Notes under the pieces: generated by a model
Seen by the model: the letters and a program-made list of their open reading frames with translations, nothing else
The model's database searches: none
What the model was told of the DNA's origin: nothing
Shown: one piece after another, positions 3,914 through 51,014 of the stretch
How the letters are laid out: each line of letters opens with the position of its first letter
How positions within the stretch are numbered: the stretch's first letter is position 1
Program-made: the position numbers and the translations under genes
From: an uncultured Acidobacteriota bacterium
Lineage (GTDB): Bacteria; Actinomycetota; Acidimicrobiia; Spongiisociales; ZC4RG35
Direction: 5' to 3'
DNA: 64,000 nucleotides
Assembly (NCBI GenBank): GCA_963746905.1
Contig: CAVVCY010000003.1
Span: forward strand, 1,031,296 to 1,095,295

Positions 3914-4307
3914 CTCAGCTCGGTCACACCCGAAGCCGGAAACGCAAGCTCCAGAGCCTGGTCCACGGTCAGAGCCTCGCCCTCCATGGTGGCGCGGGCG
4001 AATCCAGCAGCCAGCGCCTCCCGCACTGCTGCGACTCTCGAGGAATAGTCGGGCTCGTCCGGGGGCGGCCATGACCGGACCCCTCACCTTCGCTCGCGAT
4101 CCATTCGGCAAGCCCGAACAGGCGACCAGCGGTCTCGTTGTCACCGATGGTGTGCGCGCAGACCGCCAGCCCTGCGACCGCGATCGCGGCGCCCCGCTTG
4201 TCGCCGGCGGCGTCGGCCAGTCTCAGGCTTTCCGCGAGTGCGGTTTTCGACCTCTCGGGTCTCGGGAGGTCATGGTTGGCCCCAAAGTAACAAGCCTTCG
4301 GCCTTGC
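3910..4307 (-). pseudogene. Start-less C-terminal fragment of an ATPase/TPR (AfsR/LuxR-associated) regulator
   Basis: Reads ALAESLRLADAAGDKRG...TAGRLFGLAEWI, then after a G-run frameshift near 4078 PPDEPDYSSRVAAVREAL...MEGEALTVDQALELAF*; no canonical start codon. Confidence 0.5.
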
Positions 4308-5844: not shown

Positions 5845-6995
5845 ATGCGTATTGGAATCTTGACCGGTGGGGGAGACGTCCCCGGCCTCAACGCCTGCAT
5901 CAAGGCGGTGGTGAATCGAGTCGTAAGCGAGGGCCATCAGGTAGTGGGTGTCCGTCGTGGCTGGGGCGGTCTTGCCGAGACCAATCCCGACGACCCAAAA
6001 ACCGGTGAGGCGAACCTCGTCCCGCTGGACCGGGTGGCGGTGAGGACCATCGACCGCAGCGGGGGCACCTTCCTACACAGCTCGCGGACCAATCCGGCCA
6101 AGGTACGGACCGCCGAGCTGCCTGACGTTTCTCGCGGGCGATTTCAGTGGCGACGGCCCGCACGACATCACACCGCATGTGCTCCGCGTCCTCGAGACCC
6201 ACAAGATCGATGTGCTGATCCCGATCGGTGGTGACGACACCCTCTCCTACGGTCTCCGTCTCCATGAGGAAGGGGTGCCGGTGATCGCCATCCCGAAGAC
6301 GATGGACAATGACGTCCACGGCACCGACTACTGCATCGGTTTCTCCACGTCGGTGACACGTGGCGTTCAGTTCATCCACAGTCTGCGCACGGCGGCCGGG
6401 TCACACGAGCGAATCGCGGTTGTGGAGTTGTTCGGTCGTTACAGCGGAGAGACATCTCTGGTCACGGCCTACCTGTCCGGCGTGGATCGGGCGATCATCT
6501 CCGAGGTCCCCTTCGAGATCGACAAGCTGGCGGCCTTTCTCCAGGAGGACCAGGCGGCCAACCCCTCCAACTACGCGATGGTGACGATCTCCGAAGGGGC
6601 GCGTCTGGTCGAGGGCGATATTCACCTGACCGGCGAGGAGGACGCCTACGGCCACCGCAAACTCGGCGGCATCGGCGCCACCACCGGCGAGCTGCTCAAG
6701 GAGCGGACCGGCGAGGGGATCCTCTATCAGCAGATCGGCTACCTGATGCGGTCGGGTGCGCCCGACTCCCTGGACCTGATGGTTGCCACCAACTACGCGG
6801 TGATGGCCTCCGACCTGGCAATGGAAGGGGCCCACGGGCGAATGGTCGCCCTCAGGGGCGGCACCTATACCGACGTGCCGATCAGGCGTCACCCGCGAGG
6901 GCGTGAAACGGGTCGACGTGGACGAGTTGTACGACGTCGACGCCTACCAGCCCAAGGTCCGCCACGTCCTGGGCAAGCCGATGTTCCTCTACTGA
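5845..6995 (+). CDS. pfkA: 6-phosphofructokinase (PfkA family, ATP/PPi-dependent); frameshifts near 6127 and 6885
   Basis: [47 protein letters not shown]; true end ...VLGKPMFLY* at 6995. Confidence 0.85.
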
Positions 6996-14918: not shown

Positions 14919-16469
14919 CTAGAAGACCATTGCCTTGGTGGTGTCCACCCGGGGGTCGGCTGCAGTCCTCAGACCGTCGGGGCTGACTTCGATGATCGAG
15001 ACCGGGCCCCAACCGGGCTGACGGTCCGGGAGCTCCTCGATCCGGTGGCCGCGACGTCGCAATTCGTCCAGGGTCGATGATGACACCCCTGGCTCGATCG
15101 CGGATCGCGGTGTCGAGTAGGGACCGTGATCCGAGATCGTCCAACGGGGCGCTGACTGGGCCACGTCCAGTTCCTGGCCGGCGATCACCGCCCTGGCGGC
15201 GATCTGGGCTACCACTTGGGGCTGGACCGAGCCGCCCCTGGTCCCGATGAGCCAGCGAGGCCGGACGCCATGAGTCCAGAGCGTGGGTGACAGCGTGTGC
15301 AACGGTCTCCTGTGTGGCAACAGCTCGTTGGGGTGCCCCAGGGTCAGGGTGAATCCCGCTCCTCGATTGTGGAGGAGAAAGCCCCCTCTAGGAACCCCGA
15401 AGGCTGAGCCGGTTCCCCAATAGTTGGAATGGATGATCGAGACCGCCATTTCATCGGCATCGACCACGCAGAGATATGCGGTGCTCGATTCGGAGCCCAT
15501 GCTCTGGGGCCAGATTCCGGTGCGGTCGCGTTGGACGGTTGCCGCGGCCCGCTGCAGTCGGCCATGGTCCAGCAGAAGACTCGCAGGCAACGGTGCGGTG
15601 TCCGGGTCGGCCACGACATCGTCTCGCTCCCAGGCCACCGATCGGAATGCCTCGATGAGGAGATGCAGCCAGTCCGGGTCGTCAGGATCATCTGGAGGGC
15701 CAACCATCTCGAAGACGGCAAGGGAGGCCGGGCCGAGATAGCCCTGGGAGTTCGGAGGGATGGTCCAGGCGGTGTTCCCGGCCACATCGCAAGAGATCGG
15801 TGTCACCCAATCGGCGTGGGATCGGGCGAGGTCTTCATGCGTGATCGTTCCGTTGAGCTCTGAGACGATCTCACGGGCGGGGTCTCCCCGATAGAAAGCG
15901 TCCCGCCCGTCACTCGCCACAGCTTGCAACGTGGTCGCCAACGGAAATCGGTGGACGACGTCACCTGCGGACACCACATCCCCATCGGGATAGAACTCGT
16001 GGACCGCCGGGTTCTTGGAATAGATGGATGCGGTCAAGCGAAAGGCCTTCGCCTGCTCGGTGGAGACTTCGAACCCTTCCTCGGCGAGCCCGATCGCCGG
16101 CTGGAGGCAGTCGGCGAGTCCCAACACTCCAAGCTCTGCGGAGAGGGTTGCCCACCCGTCCACGCAGCCGGGAACGGTCACGGTCAAAGGGTGATCACGC
16201 GGGATCTCGGCTAGGCCGAGCGAGCGCAGCGTCTCAGGATCTGCGTTGGACCCGGCCCGACCAGAGGCGTTTAGAGCTAGTGGGCGTTCCCATCCCGGGC
16301 GATGGATCAGGGCGAAGAGATCGCCGCCGATGCCGCAGGTCTCCGGAGCCACCACTCCTTGCGCTGCGGTAGCCGCGATCGCAGCATCCACTGCATTGCC
16401 TCCGGCAAGGAGAGCCTGTCGTGCAGCCTCAGCCGACAGGTAGTGGGGGGTGGCGACCGCGTGCGTCAG
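14919..16469 (-). CDS. ggt: Gamma-glutamyltransferase family protein
   Basis: AVATPH, GGNAVDAAIAA, CGIGGDLF, PPNSQG, SSTAYLCVVD, LHNRG, HTLSP, AADPR; only a CTG is available at the expected start. Confidence 0.85.
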   Translation of the reverse strand: MTHAVATPHYLSAEAARQALLAGGNAVDAAIAATAAQGVVAPETCGIGGDLFALIHRPGWERPLALNASGRAGSNADPETLRSLGLAEIPRDHPLTVTVPGCVDGWATLSAELGVLGLADCLQPAIGLAEEGFEVSTEQAKAFRLTASIYSKNPAVHEFYPDGDVVSAGDVVHRFPLATTLQAVASDGRDAFYRGDPAREIVSELNGTITHEDLARSHADWVTPISCDVAGNTAWTIPPNSQGYLGPASLAVFEMVGPPDDPDDPDWLHLLIEAFRSVAWERDDVVADPDTAPLPASLLLDHGRLQRAAATVQRDRTGIWPQSMGSESSTAYLCVVDADEMAVSIIHSNYWGTGSAFGVPRGGFLLHNRGAGFTLTLGHPNELLPHRRPLHTLSPTLWTHGVRPRWLIGTRGGSVQPQVVAQIAARAVIAGQELDVAQSAPRWTISDHGPYSTPRSAIEPGVSSSTLDELRRRGHRIEELPDRQPGWGPVSIIEVSPDGLRTAADPRVDTTKAMVF

Positions 16470-17086
16470 GACAGTTTGAGGTCGGGGAGGAAGCGGTTCA
16501 GGGCGTCGAGCACGGCTCTGACCACGGCCCGGCCCTCCTCGTCCTCCACATACGCACAACCGATCAGCATCCGCTCGCTGGCCTCGGTGACCACCACCAC
16601 CTGGGCGACGGCAACCTTCCGATTGCCGAGGAGCGGCACGTCCATGGAGTTGATGGCCAGTGCCGCCTCCTTGTGAATCCCCTGGCGGACCGCATCCAGA
16701 GTGGCATCTGCGATCTGGCGGGCCCGGGTCGAAGCGGCCGCGGCACCGTTGGCGGTGCCGGACAGGATCTCGTTCTCCCAACGAAGGCTCACGGTGACCT
16801 CGGCTCTCGAGCCTTCCAGGGTCTCCGCCACGTCGATCAGGGCCGGGCGGAACCCACCCTCCAGGTCGCCATCAGCTAGCTGCACGACGGAAACGACACG
16901 CCGATCGATCTCCTGGCCATAGAGGGCCTGGCTGAGGGATTGGACGTCGCGCACCAGTTGTTTGGGCGGCTTGTTACGTCGGGCGAGGACATGGATCTCG
17001 GAGATGTGCCCATTTCCGTAGACAACCCGCGCCGCCTCGACTCCATCAATCCGGCCGATCTTCTCTTGAAATGCGACTATGTCCAT
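16466..17086 (-). CDS. Conserved hypothetical protein; C-terminal half resembles the LeuA allosteric domain
   Basis: EIHVLA..KQLVRDVQS..IDRRVVSVVQL N-domain; C-domain AEVTVSL..SGTANG..ATLDAV..GRAVVRAVLDALNR. Confidence 0.6.
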   Translation of the reverse strand: MDIVAFQEKIGRIDGVEAARVVYGNGHISEIHVLARRNKPPKQLVRDVQSLSQALYGQEIDRRVVSVVQLADGDLEGGFRPALIDVAETLEGSRAEVTVSLRWENEILSGTANGAAAASTRARQIADATLDAVRQGIHKEAALAINSMDVPLLGNRKVAVAQVVVVTEASERMLIGCAYVEDEEGRAVVRAVLDALNRFLPDLKLS

Positions 17087-17424
17087 TACCCGGTCAGGGT
17101 ACATCCGGGTGTCATCCCCTGACGGGATAGTCGCTCGTCCCCTTGTCGCGGGAAGCCAACAGGTCTAGATTGCGTGGCGCTGGAGCTATTCATGGGAATG
17201 TGGGGCAACCGAGGTCTTTGACTCGCTTGCCTCGGTCCGTGGCGGGCGAAGTCAGGGGCCTCTTTGACATGTGAAGAGTTCCCGTGAAAGCGGGAACCGG
17301 GTGAGACCGGCGTCAGACGTCGGCCTTGTAAAGCAATTGGACGCCATCTACCCCAGCGGAGCGGAACGTCTGGTCGACAACACAACGTCGGCCAAATACG
17401 AGAACCGAAGGTGAGCGTCACAGC

Positions 17425-17506
17425 ATGAAGGCCCGTTTGGTCCGAATTTCCGCTGCTGCCGCCAGCCTCGCTGCCGTGTTGGCCGCGAACTCGCTGTATC
17501 GGCTGA
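17425..17506 (+). CDS. Candidate small peptide (MKARLVRISAAAASLAAVLAANSL...), read in frame into the HD-GYP gene in this assembly
   Basis: ATG with AAGGTGA SD; basic then Ala/Leu-rich; out-of-frame TGA at 17504-17506; atypical codons follow. Confidence 0.5.
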
Positions 17507-17544
17507 CGAACGACGCCGGCTCACCACACACATCAGGGTCTCCC

Positions 17545-18939
17545 ATGAAACTAAGAAGAAACAGAAAGCTTCGGGGCTGGTTCGGCCGTCTTCGCCCCTC
17601 GGTGCAGCGACGTCTAAGAATCGCTGTGCCCTATTCGGTGATGGGTGTCGTCACCCTGGTGGTCACCTACACCCTTGCCGACCCGCCCCAGTGGCTGATC
17701 TGGCTCCCCTTCACCGCCCTCTTCGTCCTTCTCGAGTTCTTCGCCGTCGAGGTCAACGACCGTCTCCTCCAGTCGTCGGCGGTGATGGTGGCGATGACCG
17801 CCGGGGTCATCTTCGCCATGACCCCCAACTCGGATGCAATGTTCGGCATGGCCCTACTGGGTGGGATGGCCATGTTCACCCCGCTCGATTTCAAAGAGAA
17901 GCGCTGGTTCCAACCCCTGACCAATTTCGGTCAGATGGTGGTGGCGGGGGCGGTGGCCGGGTTCCTCCTCGATGTCAACCTCAGTCATCTCGCCGATCCC
18001 ACTGCGGAGAACTTGCTTCGGGTGGCGGTGGCCTCGGCGTTGGCGGCCCTGGCCTACGCGACAGTCCAAACCGTCCTCATCAGACATGCAGTGAAGACCG
18101 TCTACGGCAAGGACAACCTTCAACCCTGGTCTCAGATGCATGTCCTCTTCCTCGGGCAGGTTGCGATGGGTCTGCTCGGTGGCTTGATCGGGGCCGCCTA
18201 TCTGATCGCCGGTCGAGAGGCCGTCCTGATCCTCACCGTCGGGGTCTATGCCATCGGGCACATGTCGCTCTACGCCTTCTCCCAACTCCGGGAATCTCAC
18301 ATCGGCTCGATCCGGGGCTTTGTGAAGACCCTCGAGGCCAAGGACATGTACACCCGGGGTCACACCGAACGTGTGGCAGTCTTCGCCCAGATGATCGGCG
18401 AGGAGCTCGGATTCACCGGGACCCAGCTGGAGAGGGTGCGATGGGCTGCCCTGATCCATGACCTGGGCAAGTTGGCGGTCCCCACCGAGCTGATCCGCAA
18501 GCGGGGGCGCCTCGATGATGAGGAGTATGCCGAGATGCAGACCCACGCCCATCTGGTCGAGGAGATCCTGGCGGAGGTCGATTTCCTGCAGCCCATGGTC
18601 GAGATCGCCTCGGGGCATCACAGCAACTTCGATGGTTCCGGCTACGGCGGTCGTGGTCACACCGAGGGTCAGACGCCGAGTCTGGAGGCCTGCATCGTCG
18701 GGGTCGCCGACGCCTTCGACGCCATGACTTCGGCACGTTCCTACCGGATGGCGCTGTCCCAGCAATATGCCTTGCGTGAGTTGCGACGTCACTCCGGCGG
18801 GCAGTTCCACCCCGATGTGGTCGATGCCTTCGAGAAGGGGCTCATCAAGACCGGTCGCAACTGGGGCGCCCCCCATGTGAACGACGAGGAGATGGCCCGT
18901 CGTCTCGCCGAAGAGCCGGAGTTGACCCTCCGTGGCTAA
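17545..18939 (+). CDS. Membrane-sensor (MASE9-like) HD-GYP phosphodiesterase
   Basis: About 7 TM segments, then EAKDMYTRGHTERV, LIHDLGK, HHSNFDGSGYG, VADAFDAMTSARSYR, GGQFHP. Confidence 0.85.
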   Translation: MKLRRNRKLRGWFGRLRPSVQRRLRIAVPYSVMGVVTLVVTYTLADPPQWLIWLPFTALFVLLEFFAVEVNDRLLQSSAVMVAMTAGVIFAMTPNSDAMFGMALLGGMAMFTPLDFKEKRWFQPLTNFGQMVVAGAVAGFLLDVNLSHLADPTAENLLRVAVASALAALAYATVQTVLIRHAVKTVYGKDNLQPWSQMHVLFLGQVAMGLLGGLIGAAYLIAGREAVLILTVGVYAIGHMSLYAFSQLRESHIGSIRGFVKTLEAKDMYTRGHTERVAVFAQMIGEELGFTGTQLERVRWAALIHDLGKLAVPTELIRKRGRLDDEEYAEMQTHAHLVEEILAEVDFLQPMVEIASGHHSNFDGSGYGGRGHTEGQTPSLEACIVGVADAFDAMTSARSYRMALSQQYALRELRRHSGGQFHPDVVDAFEKGLIKTGRNWGAPHVNDEEMARRLAEEPELTLRG

Positions 18940-20181
18940 CTGGCATCCCCGCGCCGTGGCCGTTGTCTCCTGGTTGTTCCCCTTTGGCGCGGGCGGAGTC
19001 GGGCTCTATGCGGCGAGTCAGGCGTCGACCGACCCCTACAGCATCGCGGTCGGGGTCACCGCCCTGGTGATCGGCTCTCTGGTCGGAGTGGCGACGTCCA
19101 GCTCGGGCAATCGGTTCACCACCGGGCTCGCCGTGGCCGCAGCGATCCCGTTCGTGTTCACCAACCAGGAGACCGGATGGGTCGATCTCGCGGGTCGATC
19201 GCTGTTTACGGCATCGGATTGGCGGTGGTCTGGGTCCTAAGCCTGGCTCGTGGCGAGAAGCACATCGACCTTCTTCCGACACTCATTCGTCGTTTTGCGG
19301 GTTATGTGACCTACGCCACTGTCTACACGGCGATGCGGGTTGGGGTATTTGCAGATGTCCTGGCGGCTGGCTGGACCTGGTCCCATTCGGGATCGCCCTC
19401 GTGGCCTGGATCGCCGTCGAGGTCTTGTTACGGGCGGCTCTAGTCCTCAAGCCAGGCGAGTTGTCACGGACCTACCTTGCGAGATCGGCCCTGTACGACC
19501 TGAACGTCTTCCTGGGGCTCACCTTGACCGGAGCGCTGTTCGGTGAGCTGTTTCCGGAGCTGCGGCTGGTGGGCGCTTCCCATCGCTCTGCTCCCGTACT
19601 CATTCGCTCACTCCGCCTTCAAGAGGTTCCAGAAGACCAAGACCACCTACAAGCAGACCATCCGGGCCCTGGCCCGGATCCCGGAGGTATCTGGTCTCGG
19701 AGTCGATGGGCACGCAGACCGCACTACCGAGCTGGCGTCGGCGGTCGCCAAGGAGATGGGAATGGGACCGGCCCAGGTCGAGGACGTCGAGTACGCCGGC
19801 CTGATGCACGATATCGGTCGGGTCAGCCTCAACGAGCCACAGATCATTCGGATGGGCTACACCAACGACGACATCGCTCGATGGAGCGCGGAGATCATTG
19901 CCGAGTCGCCCTATCTGGACCGGGTCGCCGAGCACGTGAGGCGACAGTACGAGTCCTATCGGAGGCCGGGCGAGCAGACCGACCCTGACGTGTCGGTTGT
20001 CTCCAGGATCATCAAGGTCACCGCCGCCTATGACTGGCAGGTGTACCAGCAGGGCCTCTCACCACTTCAGGCTCTGGAGAATCTCCACACCGGCGCCGCT
20101 TACGAATACGACCCTGAAGTGGTCGCCTCGGTACGCAGGATCCTCGAGGCCAGAGGGGTCCTCAGCCCGGCGAGAGTGTGA
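18932..20181 (+). CDS. Second membrane HD-GYP-like protein, catalytically degenerate; three frameshifts
   Basis: TM region split over ORFs 18932/19177/19401, then GHADRT, LMHDIG, with HHE/GYP replaced by RQYESY and VAD by TAAYD; EYDPEVV. Confidence 0.7.
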
Positions 20182-22866: not shown

Positions 22867-25573
22867 AGGCCATCCTCCGCAAGACATAGTGCAGGATCCC
22901 GCCGTTGCGCAAGTACTCGACCTCGATGTCGGTGTCCACTCTGGCGATCATCGGGAAACTCCTGACCGATCCATCAGCTGCGGTCGCACTCACGATGATT
23001 TCCTGCCGCGGGTGCAGGTCGTCGGTGAGCGGGATGTCGTAGGTCTCGGAGCCATCGAGACCCAGGCTGGCGGCGTCTCCTCCATCGGCAAAGACCAGAG
23101 GGAGCACCCCCATCATCACCAGGTTGGACCGATGAATCCGCTCAAACGACCTGGCGAGGACCGCGTTGACTCCGAGCAAGAACGGGCCCTTGGCTGCCCA
23201 ATCTCGCGACGATCCCATTCCGTAGTCAGACCCGCCGATGACAATCAGGGGGATCCCGCTCTCCTGGTAATGCATCGAAGCGTCGTAGATCGATTTCACC
23301 ACACCATCGAGGAAGTCGGTGGTCCAGCCGCCCTCGGTCCCCGGCGCCAGTTGGTTCTTGACCCGGATATTGGCAAAGGTGCCTCTGGTCATGACCCGGT
23401 CGTTCCCACGCCTGGACCCGTAGGAGTTGAACATCGGGGGCTGTACCCCTTGAGAGATCAAGTACTTCCCGGCGGGGGAGTCGATGGCGATCGATCCCGC
23501 CGGGCTGATGTGGTCGGTGGTGACGGAGTCGCCGAGCAAGGCCAGTGCCCGGGCCCCGTTGATCGGGGCAAGTGGCGTGAGGTGGGGGGTCAGCGTGGTG
23601 AAGAAGGGGGGCTCCTGAACGTATGTCGATTCACCATCCCAGGGATAGAGGTCGGACTCCGGAGTCGTGATCGCACGCCATTCGTCCGAGCCTGCGAACA
23701 CGTCGGAGTACTTGTCGAGAAACTGGCTTTGGTGGACGTGCGCCGAGACGATCTCGGCGATCTCCTCCTGGCTCGGCCAGATGTCGCGGAGGAACACGTC
23801 GTTGCCTTCCTGATCGACTCCGAGAGGCTCGGTGATCGGGTCCCACGCCACGGTCCCCGCCAGGGCATAGGCCACCACCAGGGGAGGGGAAGCCAGGTAA
23901 TTGGCTCGCACATCCGGGGAGATGCGACCTTCGAAGTTCCTGTTGCCCGAGAGCACGGATGCCGTGACCAGATCGCCGGCATGGATCGCCTCGGAGATCG
24001 GTCCCGATAGTGGGCCCGAGTTGCCGATGCAGGTGGTGCACCCGTAACCCACCACATAGAACCCGAGCGCCTCGAGGTCAGGGAGCAATCCGGAGCTGGT
24101 GAGGTACTCGGTGACCACCTTGGACCCCGGGGCCAGCGAAGTCTTGACCCAGGGCATGCGGGTCAACCCACGCTCCCGGGCCTTGCGGGCGACCAGGCCC
24201 GCTCCCACCATGACATCGGGGTTCGAGGTATTCGTGCACGACGTGATCGCGGCGATCACCACGTCCCCGTCACTCAGATTGAAATGCTCGCCATCCATGT
24301 GGACATCGACGCTGGCCTGGGCCTCCAGAGACCTGCCCTGGGACGACTGACCGCCTTCGTCTTCCCAACTGACAACGGTGGCTGTCTTGGCCCCGCCATT
24401 CTTCCCAAAGAGGGTGGTGAGATCGGCAGTCCATTGCGCCCTCATCGCAGAGAGGGCCACCCGATCCTGTGGTCGCTTGGGCCCGGCCAAAGACGGCTCC
24501 ACCGTGGACATGTCGAGGGCGAGGTCCGCCGAGTAGTTGATCTGGTGACTGTCGTCCCGCCACATGCCCTGGGCCTTGTGGTACTGCTCGACGGTGTCGA
24601 TCAGCTTGTCATCGCGACCGGTCAGCCTGAGGTACTTCAGGGTCTGCTCGTCGACCGGGAAGAAGCCGACCGTGGCGCCATATTCCGGCGCCATATTGGC
24701 GATCGTTGCCCTGTTGGCTACCGGCATGTCCGCAAGCCCCGGGCCGTGGAATTCGACGAACTTGTCCACCACCCCGTGTTCGCGGAGCATCTCGGTCACC
24801 CGGAGAACCAGGTCGGTGGCGGTCGATCCCTCGGGGAGTCTTCCGGTCAGCCGGAACCCGACAACCTCGGGCAGGAGCATGTAGATCGGCTGGCCAACCA
24901 TGGCAGCCTCGGCCTCGATGCCGCCTACTCCCCAGCCGACCACCCCGAGCCCGTTGATCATCGTGGTGTGGCTGTCCGTTCCGACGAGGCTGTCCGGATA
25001 GAGCTGATCCCCGTCGTCCCAGACCACTTTGGCCAGGTATTCGAGGTTGACCTGATGGACGATGCCCGTGGCGGGTGGGACCACGCGGAAGTTGGCGAAT
25101 GCCGACTGGCCCCACTTGAGGAACTCATATCGCTCCTGGTTTCGCTCGAACTCCTTGCGAGAGTTGATGGTGAGGGCGTCCGATCGAGCGAAGGCGTCGA
25201 CCTGGACCGAGTGATCCACCACGAGGTCGGCGGGGATGAGGGGGTTGACCTTCTGCGCGGCGCCCTCATCGCCGGTCAGACGCACTATCGCCGAGCGCAT
25301 CGCGGCGAGATCGACCACCGCCGGCACCCCGGTGAAATCCTGGAGTATCACCCGACCCGGTACGAACGGGATCTCTTGCTCGCCCACTTTCCGGGCGTCA
25401 TAAGAGGCGATCCTGCGGACATCCGCTTCGGTCACACTCTTGCCGTCGAGGTTCCGCAGGGCGGACTCGAGAAGGACCTTGATCGAATAGGGGAGCCGGT
25501 TGGCGCCTTCGATGTCGTCGATTCGGGCTATCTGGCGGGGCCCGAGCGCCGTTTCGAGGGTGAACCCGTTCAT
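22859..25573 (-). CDS. acnA: Aconitate hydratase A
   Basis: [67 protein letters not shown]. Confidence 0.97.
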
Positions 25574-26478: not shown

Positions 26479-27561
26479 ATGACCGCGGACAATCAGATCT
26501 TCGACGCGGTCGCATCAATCGAGTCCCCTCTGTTCGTCGGACGAACCCTTGGGGAGTTGGGTGCTGTCAAGAAGGTCGACCGATCTCTGACCGGGAAACT
26601 GAGTGTCGAACTGCTGCTCCCGACGTCTCATACCTCCGAATTGCTGGATCAGCGCCTCAAGGACGCCCTCCACGATCATGGCCGCGGCGTCGATGTTGAC
26701 ATCGAGGTGATGAGCGAGGAGGCGGCCGTCGAGTTGATCGCCCGTCTCCGCGAACTGGCCGGGCCACCGGTCGGCGAGGCAGGCTCGTCGACCCGGGTAG
26801 TGGCGGTGGCTTCCGGCAAAGGCGGTGTTGGCAAGTCTTCGGTGAGCTGCAACCTGGCAGTAGCCCTGGTTCGGGCTGGGAAGAAGGTCGGGATCGTCGA
26901 TGGGGACATATGGGGCTTCTCGGTGCCCCGGATGCTCGGAGTCTCGCAGCCACCCCTGCTGGTGGCTGAAGCGATCATCCCACCGGTCTCCTACGGGGTG
27001 AAGGTGATGTCCATGGATTACTTCGTCGGCGACGACAAGGCCGTGATCTGGCGGGGCCCGATGCTGCACAAGGCGATCGAGCAATTCCTGAAAGATGTGT
27101 TCTGGGACAACCTCGATTTCCTGATCGTGGACATGCCGCCCGGCACCGGTGACATCGCCATCTCGATGGCGCAGTTCCTTCCCAGGGCTCAGGTATTGCT
27201 GGTCACGACCCCACAACCCACCGCGCAAAGGGTGGCCCGCCGAGCCGCGCTCATGGCAGCCGAGGTCGACCAGCAGGTGATCGGCATCGTCGAGAACATG
27301 TCGTGGTTCACGGGGGATGATGGAAAGCAATACGAGCTCTTCGGGTCGGGCGGTGGGTCCGCACTCGCCGAGGAAGTCGGGGTCGATCTCATGGCGCGGA
27401 TCCCGCTTCTGCCGGCCATGGGACGTGGCGCCGACGAAGGCCACCCGGTCGCAGTCGTGGCCCCGGGCTCTGAGGCAGAGCGGGCCTTCGAGGCGCTGGC
27501 GGGCGCCGTAATTGAGAAGAGGCCCCGGATCCGGACCAACCCGGCATTGGTGATCAACTGA
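26479..27561 (+). CDS. mrp: Mrp/NBP35 (ApbC) family P-loop ATPase
   Basis: ASGKGGVGKSS, VIWRGPML, DMPPGTGD, VTTPQ, VENMS. Confidence 0.9.
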   Translation: MTADNQIFDAVASIESPLFVGRTLGELGAVKKVDRSLTGKLSVELLLPTSHTSELLDQRLKDALHDHGRGVDVDIEVMSEEAAVELIARLRELAGPPVGEAGSSTRVVAVASGKGGVGKSSVSCNLAVALVRAGKKVGIVDGDIWGFSVPRMLGVSQPPLLVAEAIIPPVSYGVKVMSMDYFVGDDKAVIWRGPMLHKAIEQFLKDVFWDNLDFLIVDMPPGTGDIAISMAQFLPRAQVLLVTTPQPTAQRVARRAALMAAEVDQQVIGIVENMSWFTGDDGKQYELFGSGGGSALAEEVGVDLMARIPLLPAMGRGADEGHPVAVVAPGSEAERAFEALAGAVIEKRPRIRTNPALVIN

Positions 27562-38126: not shown

Positions 38127-39160
38127 ATGAGTGGCGGCCCACTACGCGTCCTCGAGATCTACGGTGCTCCCGGGGATTTCGGGCGCTTCCACGGCACCGA
38201 GTGCGCCGACCTGATCCGGGCGTATGCGAGTGATCGGCTTGGGTTGTCAGGCGACTCGACGTGGGCCGGCCGGACTGCTGATGCTGATGTCATCCTCTCC
38301 CTGGCAGAAGCCACGCTGCCTTTCCATCGCTCGTACTCGGCCGATCTGTATGAAGAGATGGATGCCCTCTCGGCAGCAGCTGGCATCACTCCGGCCCAAG
38401 CGGTGGTGGTCGGGGGCTTCACCGATCTCGTCGACGTGGTCAGGGCTCACCTCGGGGATGCGCCGACCGAAGACAACTGCACTGCAGTGATCAACCCGGT
38501 GGAAAAGGTCCTCGCCCAGACCTGGGACATGCACGCTTCGGCCGGTGACTATGTCGTGTTCCTGAAACTCGATCCCATCGCCGGCCCAGCACTGGTCGTG
38601 CAGACGACCGCCGGGTGTCTGGGTCAAATAGGGATGAACGAGGCGGGCATCGCCATCGGCATCAACAATCTCACCGCATTCGGGAAACCCGGTGTGACCT
38701 GGCCTTTCGTGGTGCGCAAGGTCCTCCAACAGACCGACCTGGATCGACGCGATCGATGCGGTTCTCGAAGCCGACCTGGCCGGTGGGCACAACTTCTTGC
38801 TGATGGGGCCCGATGGCGTCGGGGTCAATATCGAGGCGATGCCCGGCTCGACCCATGTCCAGCGCGTCGAACGACGAGCCTTTCGTGCACACCAACCACT
38901 GCCTCGAACCGACAACCAGGGGTGAGGAGTCGGTGCGGGCCCCGGAAAGCGTTGCCAGCAGCCTGACCCGTCTCGAGAGGGGGACGACTCTGGCCACCGA
39001 TCTCGACGCCTTCTTCGCCGAGCCCTCGATTTCTCGACGGGCCGGCGCCCCCCACGAGACGGCAACCTGTGGCGCGGTGATCATGCACCCGGCGGAGCGT
39101 CGGATGGAGTCGGTGTGGGGCGTGCCAGGCGACCACCCATGGGAGACCTTCCAACTGTGA
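38127..39160 (+). CDS. C45 family Ntn-hydrolase (acyl-CoA:6-APA acyltransferase-like); frameshifts near 38745 and 38865
   Basis: DNCT (N-terminal nucleophile Cys), AQTWD, GMNEAGIAIGINNL, HNF, HTNH. Confidence 0.78.
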
Positions 39161-49787: not shown

Positions 49788-51014
49788 GACCTCTCGAAGA
49801 GGCCCGCGCCGAGGTCTTGCACTCGGTCCAGGTGCTGGATACCGAGCCGGTCTCGATATGGGATGCCTCTGGCAGGGTCCTTGCCGCCGATGTGATTGCC
49901 GCCGAGAACGTTCCTCCCTTCCACAACTCGGCGATGGACGGTTACGCGGTGCTCGGCGTCGACGTGGCTCGGCCCGGAGCCGTGCTCGATGTCATCGGTG
50001 ATCTCGCCGCGGGCTTTGTGACAGAAAGACGGGTCGGTCCCGGCCAGGCACTGAAGATCATGACCGGCGCCCCCATGCCAGAAGGCGCCGACACGATTGT
50101 GAAGATCGAGGACACCGACGGTGGCACCGATCGGGTGACCATTGCCCCCGCGGTGGACGTCGGGACCTCGGTGCGGGCTGCCGGGGGCGACGTCCCCCTC
50201 GGGAGCCTGGTGTTCGAAGCCGGGACCAGGCTCACTCCGATGCATGTCGGAGTGCTGGCGACGATTGGTGTCGCCACCCCCACAGTCCGGCGACGTCCTC
50301 GGGTCGCTTTCATGTCAACCGGTGACGAGCTCGTTCCCCCCGGAGGGGGCCCACTCGCCCCCGGGTTGATCCGTGATTCGAACCGGCCGATGTTGAAGGC
50401 CCTTCTCGAGGATGCCGGGGCCGATCTGATCGACCTCGGGATCATTCCCGACAACGACGACGCCTTGCGGGAGGCACTGGAGACCGGTTCCTCCTCAGAC
50501 GTGATCGTGTCCACGGGCGGCGTCTCGATGGGGGACTACGACGTGACCAAGAAGGTGCTCCAGGGCAGCTCATCGGTCGGGTTCTGGCAGGTGGCGATCC
50601 AGCCAGCCAAGCCATTTGCATTCGGAAGGGTCGGCGACGCGCTCGTTCTTCGGCCTACCCGGCAATCCGGTGTCGGTCCTGGTGTCATTCGAGCAGTTCC
50701 TGCGCCCTGCTCTCCTCAGGATGCAAGGTGCGGGCAGAGTTCTCCGGGATCAGACTGCAGCTATCGCCGGCGAGCGATTCGACACCGATCCCGAAAAGAC
50801 TGTCTTCGTGAGGGTGCGAATCGCCGATCAGGGCCCAACCGCCCCGGTTGTCGTGTCGTCGGGAGGCCAGTTGTCCAACATCCTTTCGGCAGCTGCGGCC
50901 GCTGACGCTTTTGCGGTGGTTCCCCGTGGAGTCGCTGTGGTAGCCGAAGGAGAGGCCGTGGTCATCGAGCGGTTCAAATCACCAGAGACGAGGGAGTGGA
51001 CGGATGGGATCTGA
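49784..51014 (+). CDS. moeA: Molybdopterin molybdenumtransferase MoeA (frameshift near 50645)
   Basis: SAMDGYA, IMTGAPMP, STGDEL, TGGVSMGDYD, then FGLPGNPVS and GQLSNILS. Confidence 0.88.

What the first reader, a model, noticed from the sequence alone, without database searches (positions are those of the whole stretch)
17425..17545. Hidden ~26-aa peptide ORF masked as the N-terminus of the HD-GYP gene
Seen: MKARLVRISAAAASLAAVLAANSL has its own SD and typical codons. A TGA lies one base out of frame at 17504-17506, and the next codons (tca cca cac aca tca) are atypical for this genome. A true fusion would place a signal-like helix before a very basic stretch (MKLRRNRKLRGWFGRLR) and another TM, against the positive-inside rule. 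The neighbouring gene has three indels. Inference: a separate peptide gene whose stop was lost to a 1-nt indel; the exact C-terminus cannot be read.
Basis: partly seen in the sequence, partly recalled or inferred. Interest (0 to 1): 0.7.

Follow-up and report, generated by a model that had tools for sequence, protein, structure and literature searches.

The report
Small gene inside structured leader RNA
The apparent N-terminus of this c-di-GMP-type phosphodiesterase gene is a separate, conserved 26-29-codon gene that one spurious base in the assembly fused to its neighbour. It lies inside a previously undescribed, highly expressed structured RNA found upstream of this enzyme across an order of soil Acidimicrobiia.

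Summary
In 12 relatives the ORF starting MKARLVR... is a separate 29-codon gene ending ...[KR][IV]G-stop, in frame +1 or +2 relative to the HD-GYP gene. Near-identical Illumina contigs from two soil runs lack one base at 17495. Without it the window reads ...AANSRIG-TGA, a 26-aa peptide that uses the 'out-of-frame' TGA at 17504-06. The assembly has many such single-base indels, so the fusion is an artefact. The HD-GYP gene starts at 17545 (464 aa).

The small ORF shows a strong coding signature, is single-copy, and sits immediately upstream of the polytopic HD-GYP orthologue across the order. It matches no Pfam or NCBIfam family and is almost never called as a gene.

It lies inside a conserved ~235-nt structured RNA (about 17291-17530). 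A long-range helix with covariation pairs the 5' leader to the last codon, the stop codon and the sequence just after it. Metatranscriptome contigs cover this RNA 20-60 times deeper than the HD-GYP body. In some sister genera the RNA persists while the hydrophobic peptide core is replaced by an RNA hairpin.

Best reading: a translated, dual-function leader RNA of the HD-GYP operon. The mechanism is inferred, not shown.

The parts
17264..17269 (+). Conserved TTGACA box upstream of the RNA (possible -35 element; function not shown)
   Evidence: Conserved in the alignment of 40 leaders. No matching -10 consensus was found.
17278..17297 (+). P0 hairpin, GTTCCCG-TGAAAG-CGGGAAC
   Evidence: Present with compensatory sequence changes in all aligned leaders. 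Recovered in the MFE folds of 8 diverse leaders.
17300..17325 (+). 5' strand of the composite long-range helix P1: outer 17300-05, bulge A17306, inner 17307-14, P1c 17318-25
   Evidence: Helices are 84-96% paired, 13 of 22 pairs change on both sides, and 0 of 500 shuffles reach the observed values.
17355..17365 (+). Invariant motif AGCGGAGCGGA (AGCG[GA]AGCG in all lineages)
   Evidence: Invariant columns in alignments A2, A3 and A4. Present in all 28 'no-peptide' loci inspected.
17372..17393 (+). P3 hairpin; the sequence varies but the stem is kept
   Evidence: Per-sequence folds and alignment A3. MAFFT mis-registers it, so the count is uninformative for this helix.
17410..17414 (+). Shine-Dalgarno GGTGA of the small ORF
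   Evidence: Invariant AGGTG in A3 and A4, 10 nt before the ATG.
17425..17506 (+). Small ORF. As assembled it contains one spurious base. Without T17495 it reads MKARLVRISAAAASLAAVLAANSRIG-TGA (26 aa); most relatives have 29 aa.
17495..17495 (+). Extra base that puts the TGA at 17504-06 out of frame and fuses the ORFs
   Evidence: 'Left out 1' in near-identical contigs of runs X1 and X3. The same kind of single-base indel marks four other frame breaks in the window.
17501..17525 (+). 3' strand of P1. It covers the last Gly codon, the stop codon and GACGCCGGCTCACC.
17291..17530 (+). Approximate extent of the abundant short RNA
   Evidence: Metatranscriptome contigs start at 17291/17292 (X27, X26) and end at about 17527-17551. 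Their depth is 65-138, against 2-4 for neighbouring genes in X37.
17545..18939 (+). Polytopic membrane HD-GYP-type phosphodiesterase, 464 aa (motif HHSNFDGSGYG)
   Evidence: Pfam HD_5 at 3e-31. Homologue lengths. PDB relatives 5Z7C, 4MCW and 4R8Z.
18926..20181 (+). Paralogous membrane HD-domain gene, broken by three frame changes in this assembly (about 19195, 19358, 19563)
   Evidence: Short-read contigs carry one more base at 19357-59. Pfam HD_5 on the last segment.

Best explanation
SHOWN. 17425-17506 is a separate small gene. In this lineage it encodes the 26-aa peptide MKARLVRISAAAASLAAVLAANSRIG; in most of the order it encodes a 29-aa peptide, consensus MKxKLxRILAAAxSLAALIVAGSAxF[KR][IV]G. 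A spurious extra base at 17495 in an indel-prone assembly shifts its TGA (17504-06) out of frame and fuses it to the HD-GYP ORF, which really begins at 17545.

The small ORF lies inside a conserved ~235-nt structured RNA made of:
- the P0 hairpin;
- the invariant motif AGCGGAGCGGA;
- the P3 hairpin;
- the SD sequence;
- the ORF itself;
- a ~22-bp composite long-range helix, P1, that pairs the 5' leader with the ORF's last codon, its stop codon and the 14 nt after it.

This RNA accumulates as a discrete, abundant species. It is single-copy and sits immediately upstream of a polytopic HD-GYP gene.

INFERRED. It is a dual-function leader RNA.
1. The RNA part is the universal, primary element, most likely a cis-acting control region for the HD-GYP operon. 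A ribosome reading to the stop codon must open P1, so translation and RNA folding are coupled. The short RNA would then be the terminated or processed leader.
2. In most lineages the translated product is also a selected hydrophobic mini-protein, probably membrane-inserted, that may act on or with the membrane HD-GYP.

Which signal is sensed is unknown.
For: Separate gene
- In 12 relatives the ORF ends at ...ATCGGCTGA in frame +1 or +2 relative to HD-GYP, and the spacer indels are not multiples of 3.
- Codon-position divergence among 33 distinct ORFs is 0.36/0.23/0.60. In codons 15-24, position 2 is almost invariant (entropy 0 in seven of the ten) and position 3 is near saturation.
- Stops vary (TGA/TAA/TAG) at a fixed position, and Arg is encoded by CGA, AGG, CGG and AGA.

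Artefact
- X1 and X3 contigs lack one base at 17495.
- Frame breaks predicted from G002's continuous ORFs coincide with single-base indels against Illumina contigs at 129, 2204, 6884 and 8413, four of four covered sites, and at 19357-59.
- Several close relatives are MFD-series MAGs with megabase-scale contigs, which suggests long-read assembly.

Linkage
- The peptide is single-copy in G000.
- It is found next to the orthologue in 25 of 27 genomes that have the orthologue and in 0 of 4 that lack it.
- 28 of 30 further loci have HD-GYP directly downstream.

RNA
- P1 cognate duplexes average -38.0 kcal/mol against -27.4 for swapped partners, permutation p<1e-4.
- P1 helices are 84-96% paired, 13 of 22 pairs change on both sides, 0 of 500 shuffles reach the observed values, and slid controls are 27-48% paired.
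- MFE folds of 8 diverse leaders all give P0 plus P1.
- Covariance model R1 finds one copy per genome in 34 of 36 family genomes.

Expression
- Metatranscriptome contig depth is 65 (X27) and 138 (X37) over 17291-17486, against 2-4 for flanking genes including HD-GYP in X37.

RNA is primary
- 28 inspected loci without the canonical peptide keep every RNA element.
- Their 25-codon ORF shows no 3-periodicity, 0.19/0.19/0.15.
- Their HD-GYP membrane domain is no more diverged than in peptide-bearing lineages.
Against: - No read from the window's own sample was available. The X1 and X3 contigs differ from the window by 2-4 SNPs, so a real strain-specific frameshift is not formally excluded.
- The regulatory role is inferred from anatomy only.
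- No intrinsic terminator or sigma-70 consensus was found.
- There is no extended C-rich, G-poor rut-like tract.
- Predicted accessibility of the SD does not change with or without the 3' strand.
- The distance from the sORF stop to the HD-GYP start varies from about 35 to 200 nt, which argues against tight translational coupling.
- Strong purifying selection on a hydrophobic helix is not needed for a pure leader peptide.
- Contig depth is a poor measure of expression, and contigs carry no strand information.
Confidence: 0.55

Rival explanations
1. The small ORF is simply the gene for a small single-pass membrane protein that binds and regulates the neighbouring polytopic HD-GYP, in the way MgrB or SafA act on PhoQ. 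On this reading the RNA structure only stabilises its mRNA.
For: The peptide has a basic N-terminus followed by an Ala/Leu/Gly/Ser-rich stretch of about 17 residues under strong purifying selection. It is strictly adjacent to, and co-occurs with, the membrane HD-GYP. Its mRNA is abundant.
Against: Sister genera keep the RNA and an intact, normally diverging HD-GYP membrane domain, yet replace the hydrophobic core with polar sequence or break the frame. The window lineage itself has lost 3 residues, including the otherwise invariant G22 and A24.
Confidence: 0.2
2. The extra T at 17495 is real in this strain, so this strain makes a 504-aa fusion protein or has an inactivated small gene.
For: No contig identical to the window spans 17495. 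The contigs that lack the base differ from the window by 2-4 SNPs nearby.
Against: The window carries single-base indels at every covered predicted frame break. No relative has a fusion. A fusion would put a hydrophobic helix in front of a very basic cytoplasmic segment.
Confidence: 0.08
3. The peptide is an exported pro-peptide. A Sec-type signal sequence is cleaved after G22-x-A24, releasing a C-terminal pentapeptide (x-x-[KR]-[IV]-G) that acts as an extracellular signal sensed by the membrane HD-GYP, in the manner of Phr peptides.
For: G22, A24 and G29 are invariant in the 12-sequence peptide alignment and sit at the -3, -1 and C-terminal positions. The peptide has an n-region and an h-region. 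Residues 25-26 are the most variable. The mRNA is abundant.
Against: The 26-aa and 25-aa variants lack the G-x-A site. At 29 aa the peptide would be unusually short for Sec export. No processing or transport genes are linked. The conservation of ATCGGCTGA is at least partly an RNA constraint, because it pairs in P1c and persists where the frame is broken.
Confidence: 0.07
4. It is a type I toxin-like module: a small hydrophobic peptide whose stable mRNA is locked by 5'-3' pairing, as in hok or aapA1 mRNAs, and is controlled by an unseen antisense RNA.
For: A small hydrophobic peptide, a long-range 5'-3' helix enclosing the ORF, an SD predicted to be mostly paired, and an abundant short RNA.
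Against: The element is single-copy, vertically inherited and fixed next to one gene across an order. The RNA is kept where the peptide core is lost. No antisense RNA could be examined, and removing the 3' strand does not change predicted SD access.
Confidence: 0.06
5. The ORF is not translated at all. The whole region is a non-coding structured RNA (a riboswitch or an sRNA), and the open frame is incidental.
For: In the 25-codon clade the region evolves as RNA, and several lineages have broken frames. The conserved ends of the ORF take part in P1.
Against: The 29-codon lineages show strong 3-periodicity. The stop codon varies in type but not in position. Arg codons are exchanged synonymously. 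An SD is conserved at the correct spacing.
Confidence: 0.04

Closest known systems
Leader-peptide (uORF) attenuator leaders, e.g. trpL, tnaC, and the ilvB-II uORF of Corynebacterium (PMC10272879); peTrpL as a leader peptide that also acts in trans (PMC7298713)
   Same: A short translated ORF with its own SD lies inside a structured 5' leader of the regulated gene. RNA pairing overlaps the end of the ORF, so ribosome position must affect folding. The short leader RNA is more abundant than the downstream mRNA.
   Different: There are no runs of regulatory codons, no recognisable intrinsic terminator and no rut-like tract. The peptide is a strongly conserved hydrophobic helix. The regulated gene is a cyclic-dinucleotide phosphodiesterase, not a biosynthetic operon. 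No sequence or Rfam relationship was found.
Dual-function small RNAs that encode small proteins (RNAIII/delta-haemolysin, SR1/SR1P, SgrS/SgrT); comparison from my own knowledge
   Same: An abundant structured RNA of a few hundred nt carries a small ORF of about 26-40 codons. The RNA and the peptide are under separate constraints, and some lineages keep the RNA and lose the peptide.
   Different: No trans target is known. The position is fixed immediately upstream of one gene, which points to cis action.
Type I toxin mRNAs with 5'-3' fold-back (hok/Sok, aapA1/IsoA1, tisB); comparison from my own knowledge
   Same: A small hydrophobic peptide, a long-distance helix between the mRNA ends that encloses the ORF, and an SD predicted to be paired.
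   Different: The element is single-copy, syntenic and vertically inherited. No antitoxin RNA was seen. The RNA is retained where the peptide core is lost.
Small membrane proteins that modulate sensors (MgrB and SafA on PhoQ); comparison from my own knowledge
   Same: A peptide of about 30 aa with one hydrophobic helix, encoded beside or linked to a membrane signalling protein.
   Different: The partner here would be an HD-GYP phosphodiesterase. The peptide is dispensable in sister genera, with no visible change in the partner's membrane domain.

Membership tests
Any curated protein family (Pfam-A, NCBIfam) | Score above the family's curated cut-off | tested here: not met
   The best hits are AgrD (TIGR04223) at 12.8 bits against a cut-off of 19, and DUF4148 at 10.9 against 27. 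Two of the four peptides tested gave no hit at all.
Any Rfam family | Covariance-model match at or near the gathering score | tested here: not met
   Window 16900-17800 was searched on both strands at E<=1. Only two chance-level hits appeared, both on the minus strand, at 17-21 bits against gathering scores of 60-70.
Leader-peptide transcription attenuator | A short translated ORF with its own SD in the 5' leader of the regulated gene | tested here: met
   The SD, start codon, fixed stop position and coding periodicity are all present. HD-GYP lies directly downstream.
Leader-peptide transcription attenuator | Mutually exclusive terminator and antiterminator structures, with an intrinsic terminator or Rho site after the ORF | tested here: not met
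   No terminator-like site was found. C>G skew is confined to +15 to +30 after the stop. Folding predicts no switch. The short-RNA 3' ends at about 17527-17551 are compatible with termination or processing by another route.
Type I toxin-antitoxin | A small hydrophobic peptide on an mRNA with long-range 5'-3' pairing | tested here: met
Type I toxin-antitoxin | A cognate antisense or overlapping antitoxin RNA, and toxicity on expression | not testable with these tools
   The contigs carry no strand information, and there is no experiment.
Sec signal peptide / Phr-like exported pro-peptide | An n-region, an h-region and small residues at -3 and -1 of a cleavage site, conserved in all members | tested here: inconclusive
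   G22 and A24 are invariant in the 12-sequence alignment of 29-aa forms, although a wider set includes a few exceptions. The site is absent from the 26-aa form of this lineage and from the 25-aa forms.
HD-GYP phosphodiesterase (downstream gene, context) | An HD_5/HD domain with the HD...HHxxxDGxGYP signature | tested here: met
   Pfam HD_5 at 108.8 bits against a cut-off of 27.2. The sequence has HDLGK and HHSNFDGSGYG, with Gly in place of Pro. The closest solved structures are 5Z7C (a cGAMP phosphodiesterase), 4MCW and 4R8Z.

The most novel reading that the evidence does not exclude
The RNA-plus-peptide unit is a new kind of sensor upstream of a cyclic-dinucleotide phosphodiesterase, in one of two forms.

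(a) A ligand-binding or nascent-peptide-dependent riboregulator. The invariant AGCGGAGCGGA junction, or the conserved ...[KR][IV]G-stop end while it is inside the ribosome, would sense a small molecule such as c-di-GMP, cGAMP or pGpG. It would then set HD-GYP expression by holding P1 open or closed.

(b) A minimal peptide-signalling circuit. The 29-mer would be cleaved after G-x-A, and the released pentapeptide would be read by the polytopic HD-GYP, linking cell density to cyclic-dinucleotide turnover in Actinomycetota.
Probability: 0.12. Interest if true: 0.85.

Novelty: new variant of a known kind. Interest (0 to 1): 0.55.

Why it matters
- It rescues a real, conserved micro-gene that gene callers miss. 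Only 1 of 10 variants is present among about 15 billion predicted proteins.
- It shows how one assembly indel can hide such a gene inside a neighbour's ORF.
- It defines an undescribed structured RNA motif, with covariation and strong environmental expression, tied to HD-GYP phosphodiesterases in widespread uncultured soil Acidimicrobiia.
- It is a concrete candidate for a new cis-regulatory or dual-function RNA controlling cyclic-dinucleotide signalling.
- It offers a natural comparison in which the RNA is kept with and without its hydrophobic peptide.

Tried and rejected
- An Rfam scan of 16900-17800 found nothing credible.
- Pfam and NCBIfam scans of four peptide variants gave only sub-threshold chance hits.
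- The search for homologous proteins refuses queries under 40 aa.
- The sigma-70 promoter and intrinsic-terminator scan of 17100-17700 found none.
- A Rho/rut model like tnaC was considered. The C-rich, G-poor composition is confined to the 15 nt of the P1 3' strand, so it is not supported.
- A hok-like switch was considered. Predicted SD accessibility is low (about 0.25) whether or not the 3' strand is present, so it is not supported.
- RNAalifold on the raw MAFFT alignment recovers only the P1 core. P3 is mis-registered by MAFFT, so its pair count is meaningless. Per-sequence folds were used instead.
- A co-evolution test of peptide type against HD-GYP membrane-domain divergence found no difference.
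- No run holding the window's own reads was found. The best share of words was 0.41.
- A literature search for HD-GYP together with leader peptide or uORF found nothing specific.
- I considered structure prediction of the fused ORF and dropped it, because the tool returns no contact information that could test peptide-receptor packing.
Full report
**1. The observation**

The window has an ORF from ATG 17425 to 18939 (504 aa). GGTGA lies 10 nt upstream of the ATG. In-frame GC3 is 0.70-0.85 over the first 90 nt and drops to 0.45 over 17515-17574, before the typical 0.9 of the gene body begins near 17635. TGA at 17504-06 is one base out of frame. Only residues 301-464 match a protein family, HD_5/HD.

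**2. Where the HD-GYP gene really starts**

The best 120 homologues are 431-469 aa long and cover at most 93% of the 504-aa query, and most are 455-469 aa. The protein called on this very contig (P0001) is 464 aa, which means it starts at ATG 17545 with MKLRRNRK....

**3. The upstream ORF is a separate gene in relatives**

I extracted the region upstream of the orthologue from 12 genomes of the same genus and a sister genus. Every one has the ORF MKARLVRILAAAASLAAVIAAGSAS[ST]RIG-TGA, 29 codons long. It lies in frame +1 or +2 relative to HD-GYP, because the spacers differ by lengths that are not multiples of three.

More distant families of the order carry the same 29-codon ORF, for example MKAKLVRILATAGSLAALIVAGSANFKIG and MKAKVARFIAIASSLSALIVAGAASFKVG.

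A profile of the peptide gives the following picture.
- It finds one copy in the window's own genome.
- It finds a copy next to the orthologue in 25 of the 27 related genomes that have the orthologue, and in none of the 4 that lack it.
- In a sample of 301 genomes of the class it hits 54, of which 48 belong to the same order.
- In 28 of 30 fetched loci the HD-GYP orthologue begins 35-200 nt downstream. The other two loci are at contig ends.

**4. It is coding**

Among 33 distinct 29-codon ORFs, mean pairwise differences per site are 0.36, 0.23 and 0.60 for codon positions 1, 2 and 3. In codons 15-24, position 2 is almost invariant (entropy 0 in seven of the ten), while position 3 carries 1.4-1.95 bits. 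The stop is TGA, TAA or TAG, always at the same position. Starts are ATG, GTG, TTG or CTG. Arg is written CGA, AGG, CGG or AGA.

No Pfam or NCBIfam family matches. Only 1 of 10 variants exists as a called protein among about 15 billion, where it is labelled 'hypothetical protein'.

**5. Why the window shows a fusion**

Two soil metagenome runs from one study (X1, X3) hold contigs with only 4 and 2 mismatches to 17369-17541. Both lack one base at 17495. Nextera adapter remnants in runs of the same study show these are short-read data.

Without T17495 the window reads GCG AAC TCG CGT ATC GGC TGA, which is ...AANSRIG-stop. Relative to the rest of the genus it carries an in-frame loss of three codons.

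The assembly is indel-prone.
- Continuous ORFs of relative G002 break into two or three frames on the window in at least seven genes.
- At all four of those breaks that are covered (129, 2204, 6884, 8413), short-read contigs differ from the window by exactly one inserted or deleted base.
- The neighbouring paralogue has three frame changes. At the one that is covered, two contigs carry an extra base.
- Several close relatives are MFD-series MAGs with megabase-scale contigs, which suggests long-read assembly.

I put about 0.9 on the fusion being an assembly artefact. Reads from the window's own sample were not available.

**6. The ORF sits inside a structured RNA**

Aligning 40 leaders revealed the following conserved elements.
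- A conserved TTGACA box at 17264-69.
- A hairpin, P0, at 17278-97.
- An invariant motif, AGCG[GA]AGCG(GA), at 17355-65.
- A variable-sequence hairpin, P3, at 17372-93.
- The SD and the start codon.
- Just after the stop codon, a segment complementary to the 5' leader.

In the window, 17300-05, 17307-14 and 17318-25 pair with 17520-25, 17512-19 and 17501-08. This composite helix, P1, therefore includes the last Gly codon and the stop codon.

The support for P1 is as follows.
- Cognate 5'/3' strands give -38.0 kcal/mol against -27.4 for swapped partners across 22 lineages. The cognate partner ranks 1-4 in 20 of the 22, and the permutation p is below 1e-4.
- On a 35-sequence alignment the three P1 helices are 84%, 96% and 89% paired, and 13 of 22 pairs change on both sides.
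- For the whole tested structure, no shuffle out of 500 reaches any observed measure, and sliding the partner drops pairing from 78% to 27-48%.
- MFE folds of eight diverse leaders all return P0 and P1.
- Rfam has no match.

**7. It is an abundant, discrete RNA**

Metatranscriptomes from soil, sediment and ice hold contigs of close relatives that start at 17291/17292 and end between about 17527 and 17551, just outside the two P1 strands. On a 20-kb stretch, X37 covers 17331-17470 at depth 138 and X27 covers 17291-17486 at depth 65. Contigs of the same genus in X37 on neighbouring genes, including the HD-GYP body, have depth 2-4. Contig depth is a crude measure and carries no strand information, but the contrast is 20-60-fold.

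**8. The RNA outlives the hydrophobic peptide**

Of 80 further loci found through the HD-GYP protein, all from Acidimicrobiia MAGs, 34 have the canonical peptide. All 28 of the remainder that I inspected keep P0, P1, the invariant motif, P3, the SD and the ...ATCGGCTGA end. In these the middle of the ORF is replaced by a hairpin, GTCGCGAGCCTG...GTGCTCGC.

Most of these still have an open 25-26-codon frame ending RIG-stop, for example MKAFLARNRKYVASLQIVLAGVRIG. Others are out of frame or lack a start codon, and one of those comes from a short-read assembly.

The 25-codon clade shows no 3-periodicity, at 0.19/0.19/0.15, so there the region evolves as RNA. A covariance model of the 5' half finds one copy per genome in 34 of 36 sampled genomes of the family, including genera without the canonical peptide. 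The HD-GYP membrane domain is no more diverged in those lineages than in peptide-bearing ones.

**9. Interpretation**

Shown:
- a separate, translated-looking, conserved small gene;
- an assembly-made fusion;
- a conserved long-range RNA structure that encloses the ORF;
- strong expression as a short RNA;
- strict linkage to a polytopic HD-GYP, whose closest solved relatives are the cGAMP and c-di-GMP phosphodiesterases 5Z7C, 4MCW and 4R8Z. The HD-GYP is followed by a degenerate paralogue and a convergent DUF5317 gene.

Inferred:
- The unit is a dual-function leader.
- The RNA is the universal part and most likely acts in cis on the operon. A ribosome reaching the stop codon has to melt P1.
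- In most lineages the peptide is an additionally selected hydrophobic mini-protein.

I could not find the expression platform. There is no terminator or promoter consensus, no rut-like tract, and no predicted change in SD accessibility. The mechanism therefore stays at roughly even odds.

Four rivals are not excluded and are scored separately:
- a small membrane partner of the HD-GYP;
- an exported pro-peptide;
- a type I toxin-like module;
- a purely non-coding RNA.

**10. Novelty**

Leader ORFs, dual-function RNAs and small membrane proteins are known kinds. This RNA motif, its peptide and their tie to HD-GYP genes match no curated family and no paper I could find. Other first-stage notes on related genomes had seen 'long leaders' before tandem HD-GYP genes, but none had seen the ORF or the structure.

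Noticed in passing
window 129, 2204, 5843, 6884, 7256, 7743, 7765, 8413; also about 4071-4086, 6128-6147, 38700-38880, 50520-50650: Single-base indels relative to near-identical short-read contigs, and frame breaks relative to continuous ORFs of relative G002. The assembly carries frequent indel errors, so other 'pseudogenes' and odd ORF boundaries in this genome should be distrusted.
   Followed up: partly
window 18926-20181: The paralogous membrane HD-domain gene overlaps the end of the HD-GYP gene. It is split into frames 1, 3, 2 and 3 at about 19195, 19358 and 19563. Orthologues are intact at 416-417 aa. Short-read contigs add a base at 19357-59.
   Followed up: partly
loci L073-L106, L131, L140, L141 (sister genera): The centre of the small ORF is replaced by a conserved hairpin, GTCGCGAGCCTG-loop-GTGCTCGC, giving a 25-codon ORF without coding periodicity. 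This looks like a natural 'RNA-only' version of the element.
   Followed up: partly
window 23342-25342 and 26677-27343: Very high metatranscriptome depth from many organisms (up to about 2770 at 24926). This is probably a strongly conserved, highly expressed gene. I did not identify it.
   Followed up: no
metatranscriptome run X27, contig over window 17291-17486: The contig continues ...GGCTCGGCTTCAACCCGAACCGGCAGATC, where relatives have ...CGAATCGGCTGA. That would be a variant without the usual stop codon.
   Followed up: no
G004 (C47:91-177 and C48:1558-1644), G263, G150, G015: Two peptide hits in one genome, mostly at contig ends. They may be assembly duplicates or strain mixtures rather than true paralogues.
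   Followed up: no
window 16466-17104 (-): A divergently oriented 212-aa ORF with no Pfam family shares the 320-nt intergenic region with the leader RNA.
   Followed up: no
window 17339-17344: A second GACGCC lies 25 nt downstream of the P1 5' strand GGCGTC. It could form a local alternative hairpin that competes with P1. It is conserved in most but not all lineages: L081 and L099 keep the distal pairing only.
   Followed up: partly
G000 contig C1:42074-42166 (-): The only other weak hit of the peptide profile in the genome, at E=0.22. It is probably chance.
   Followed up: no
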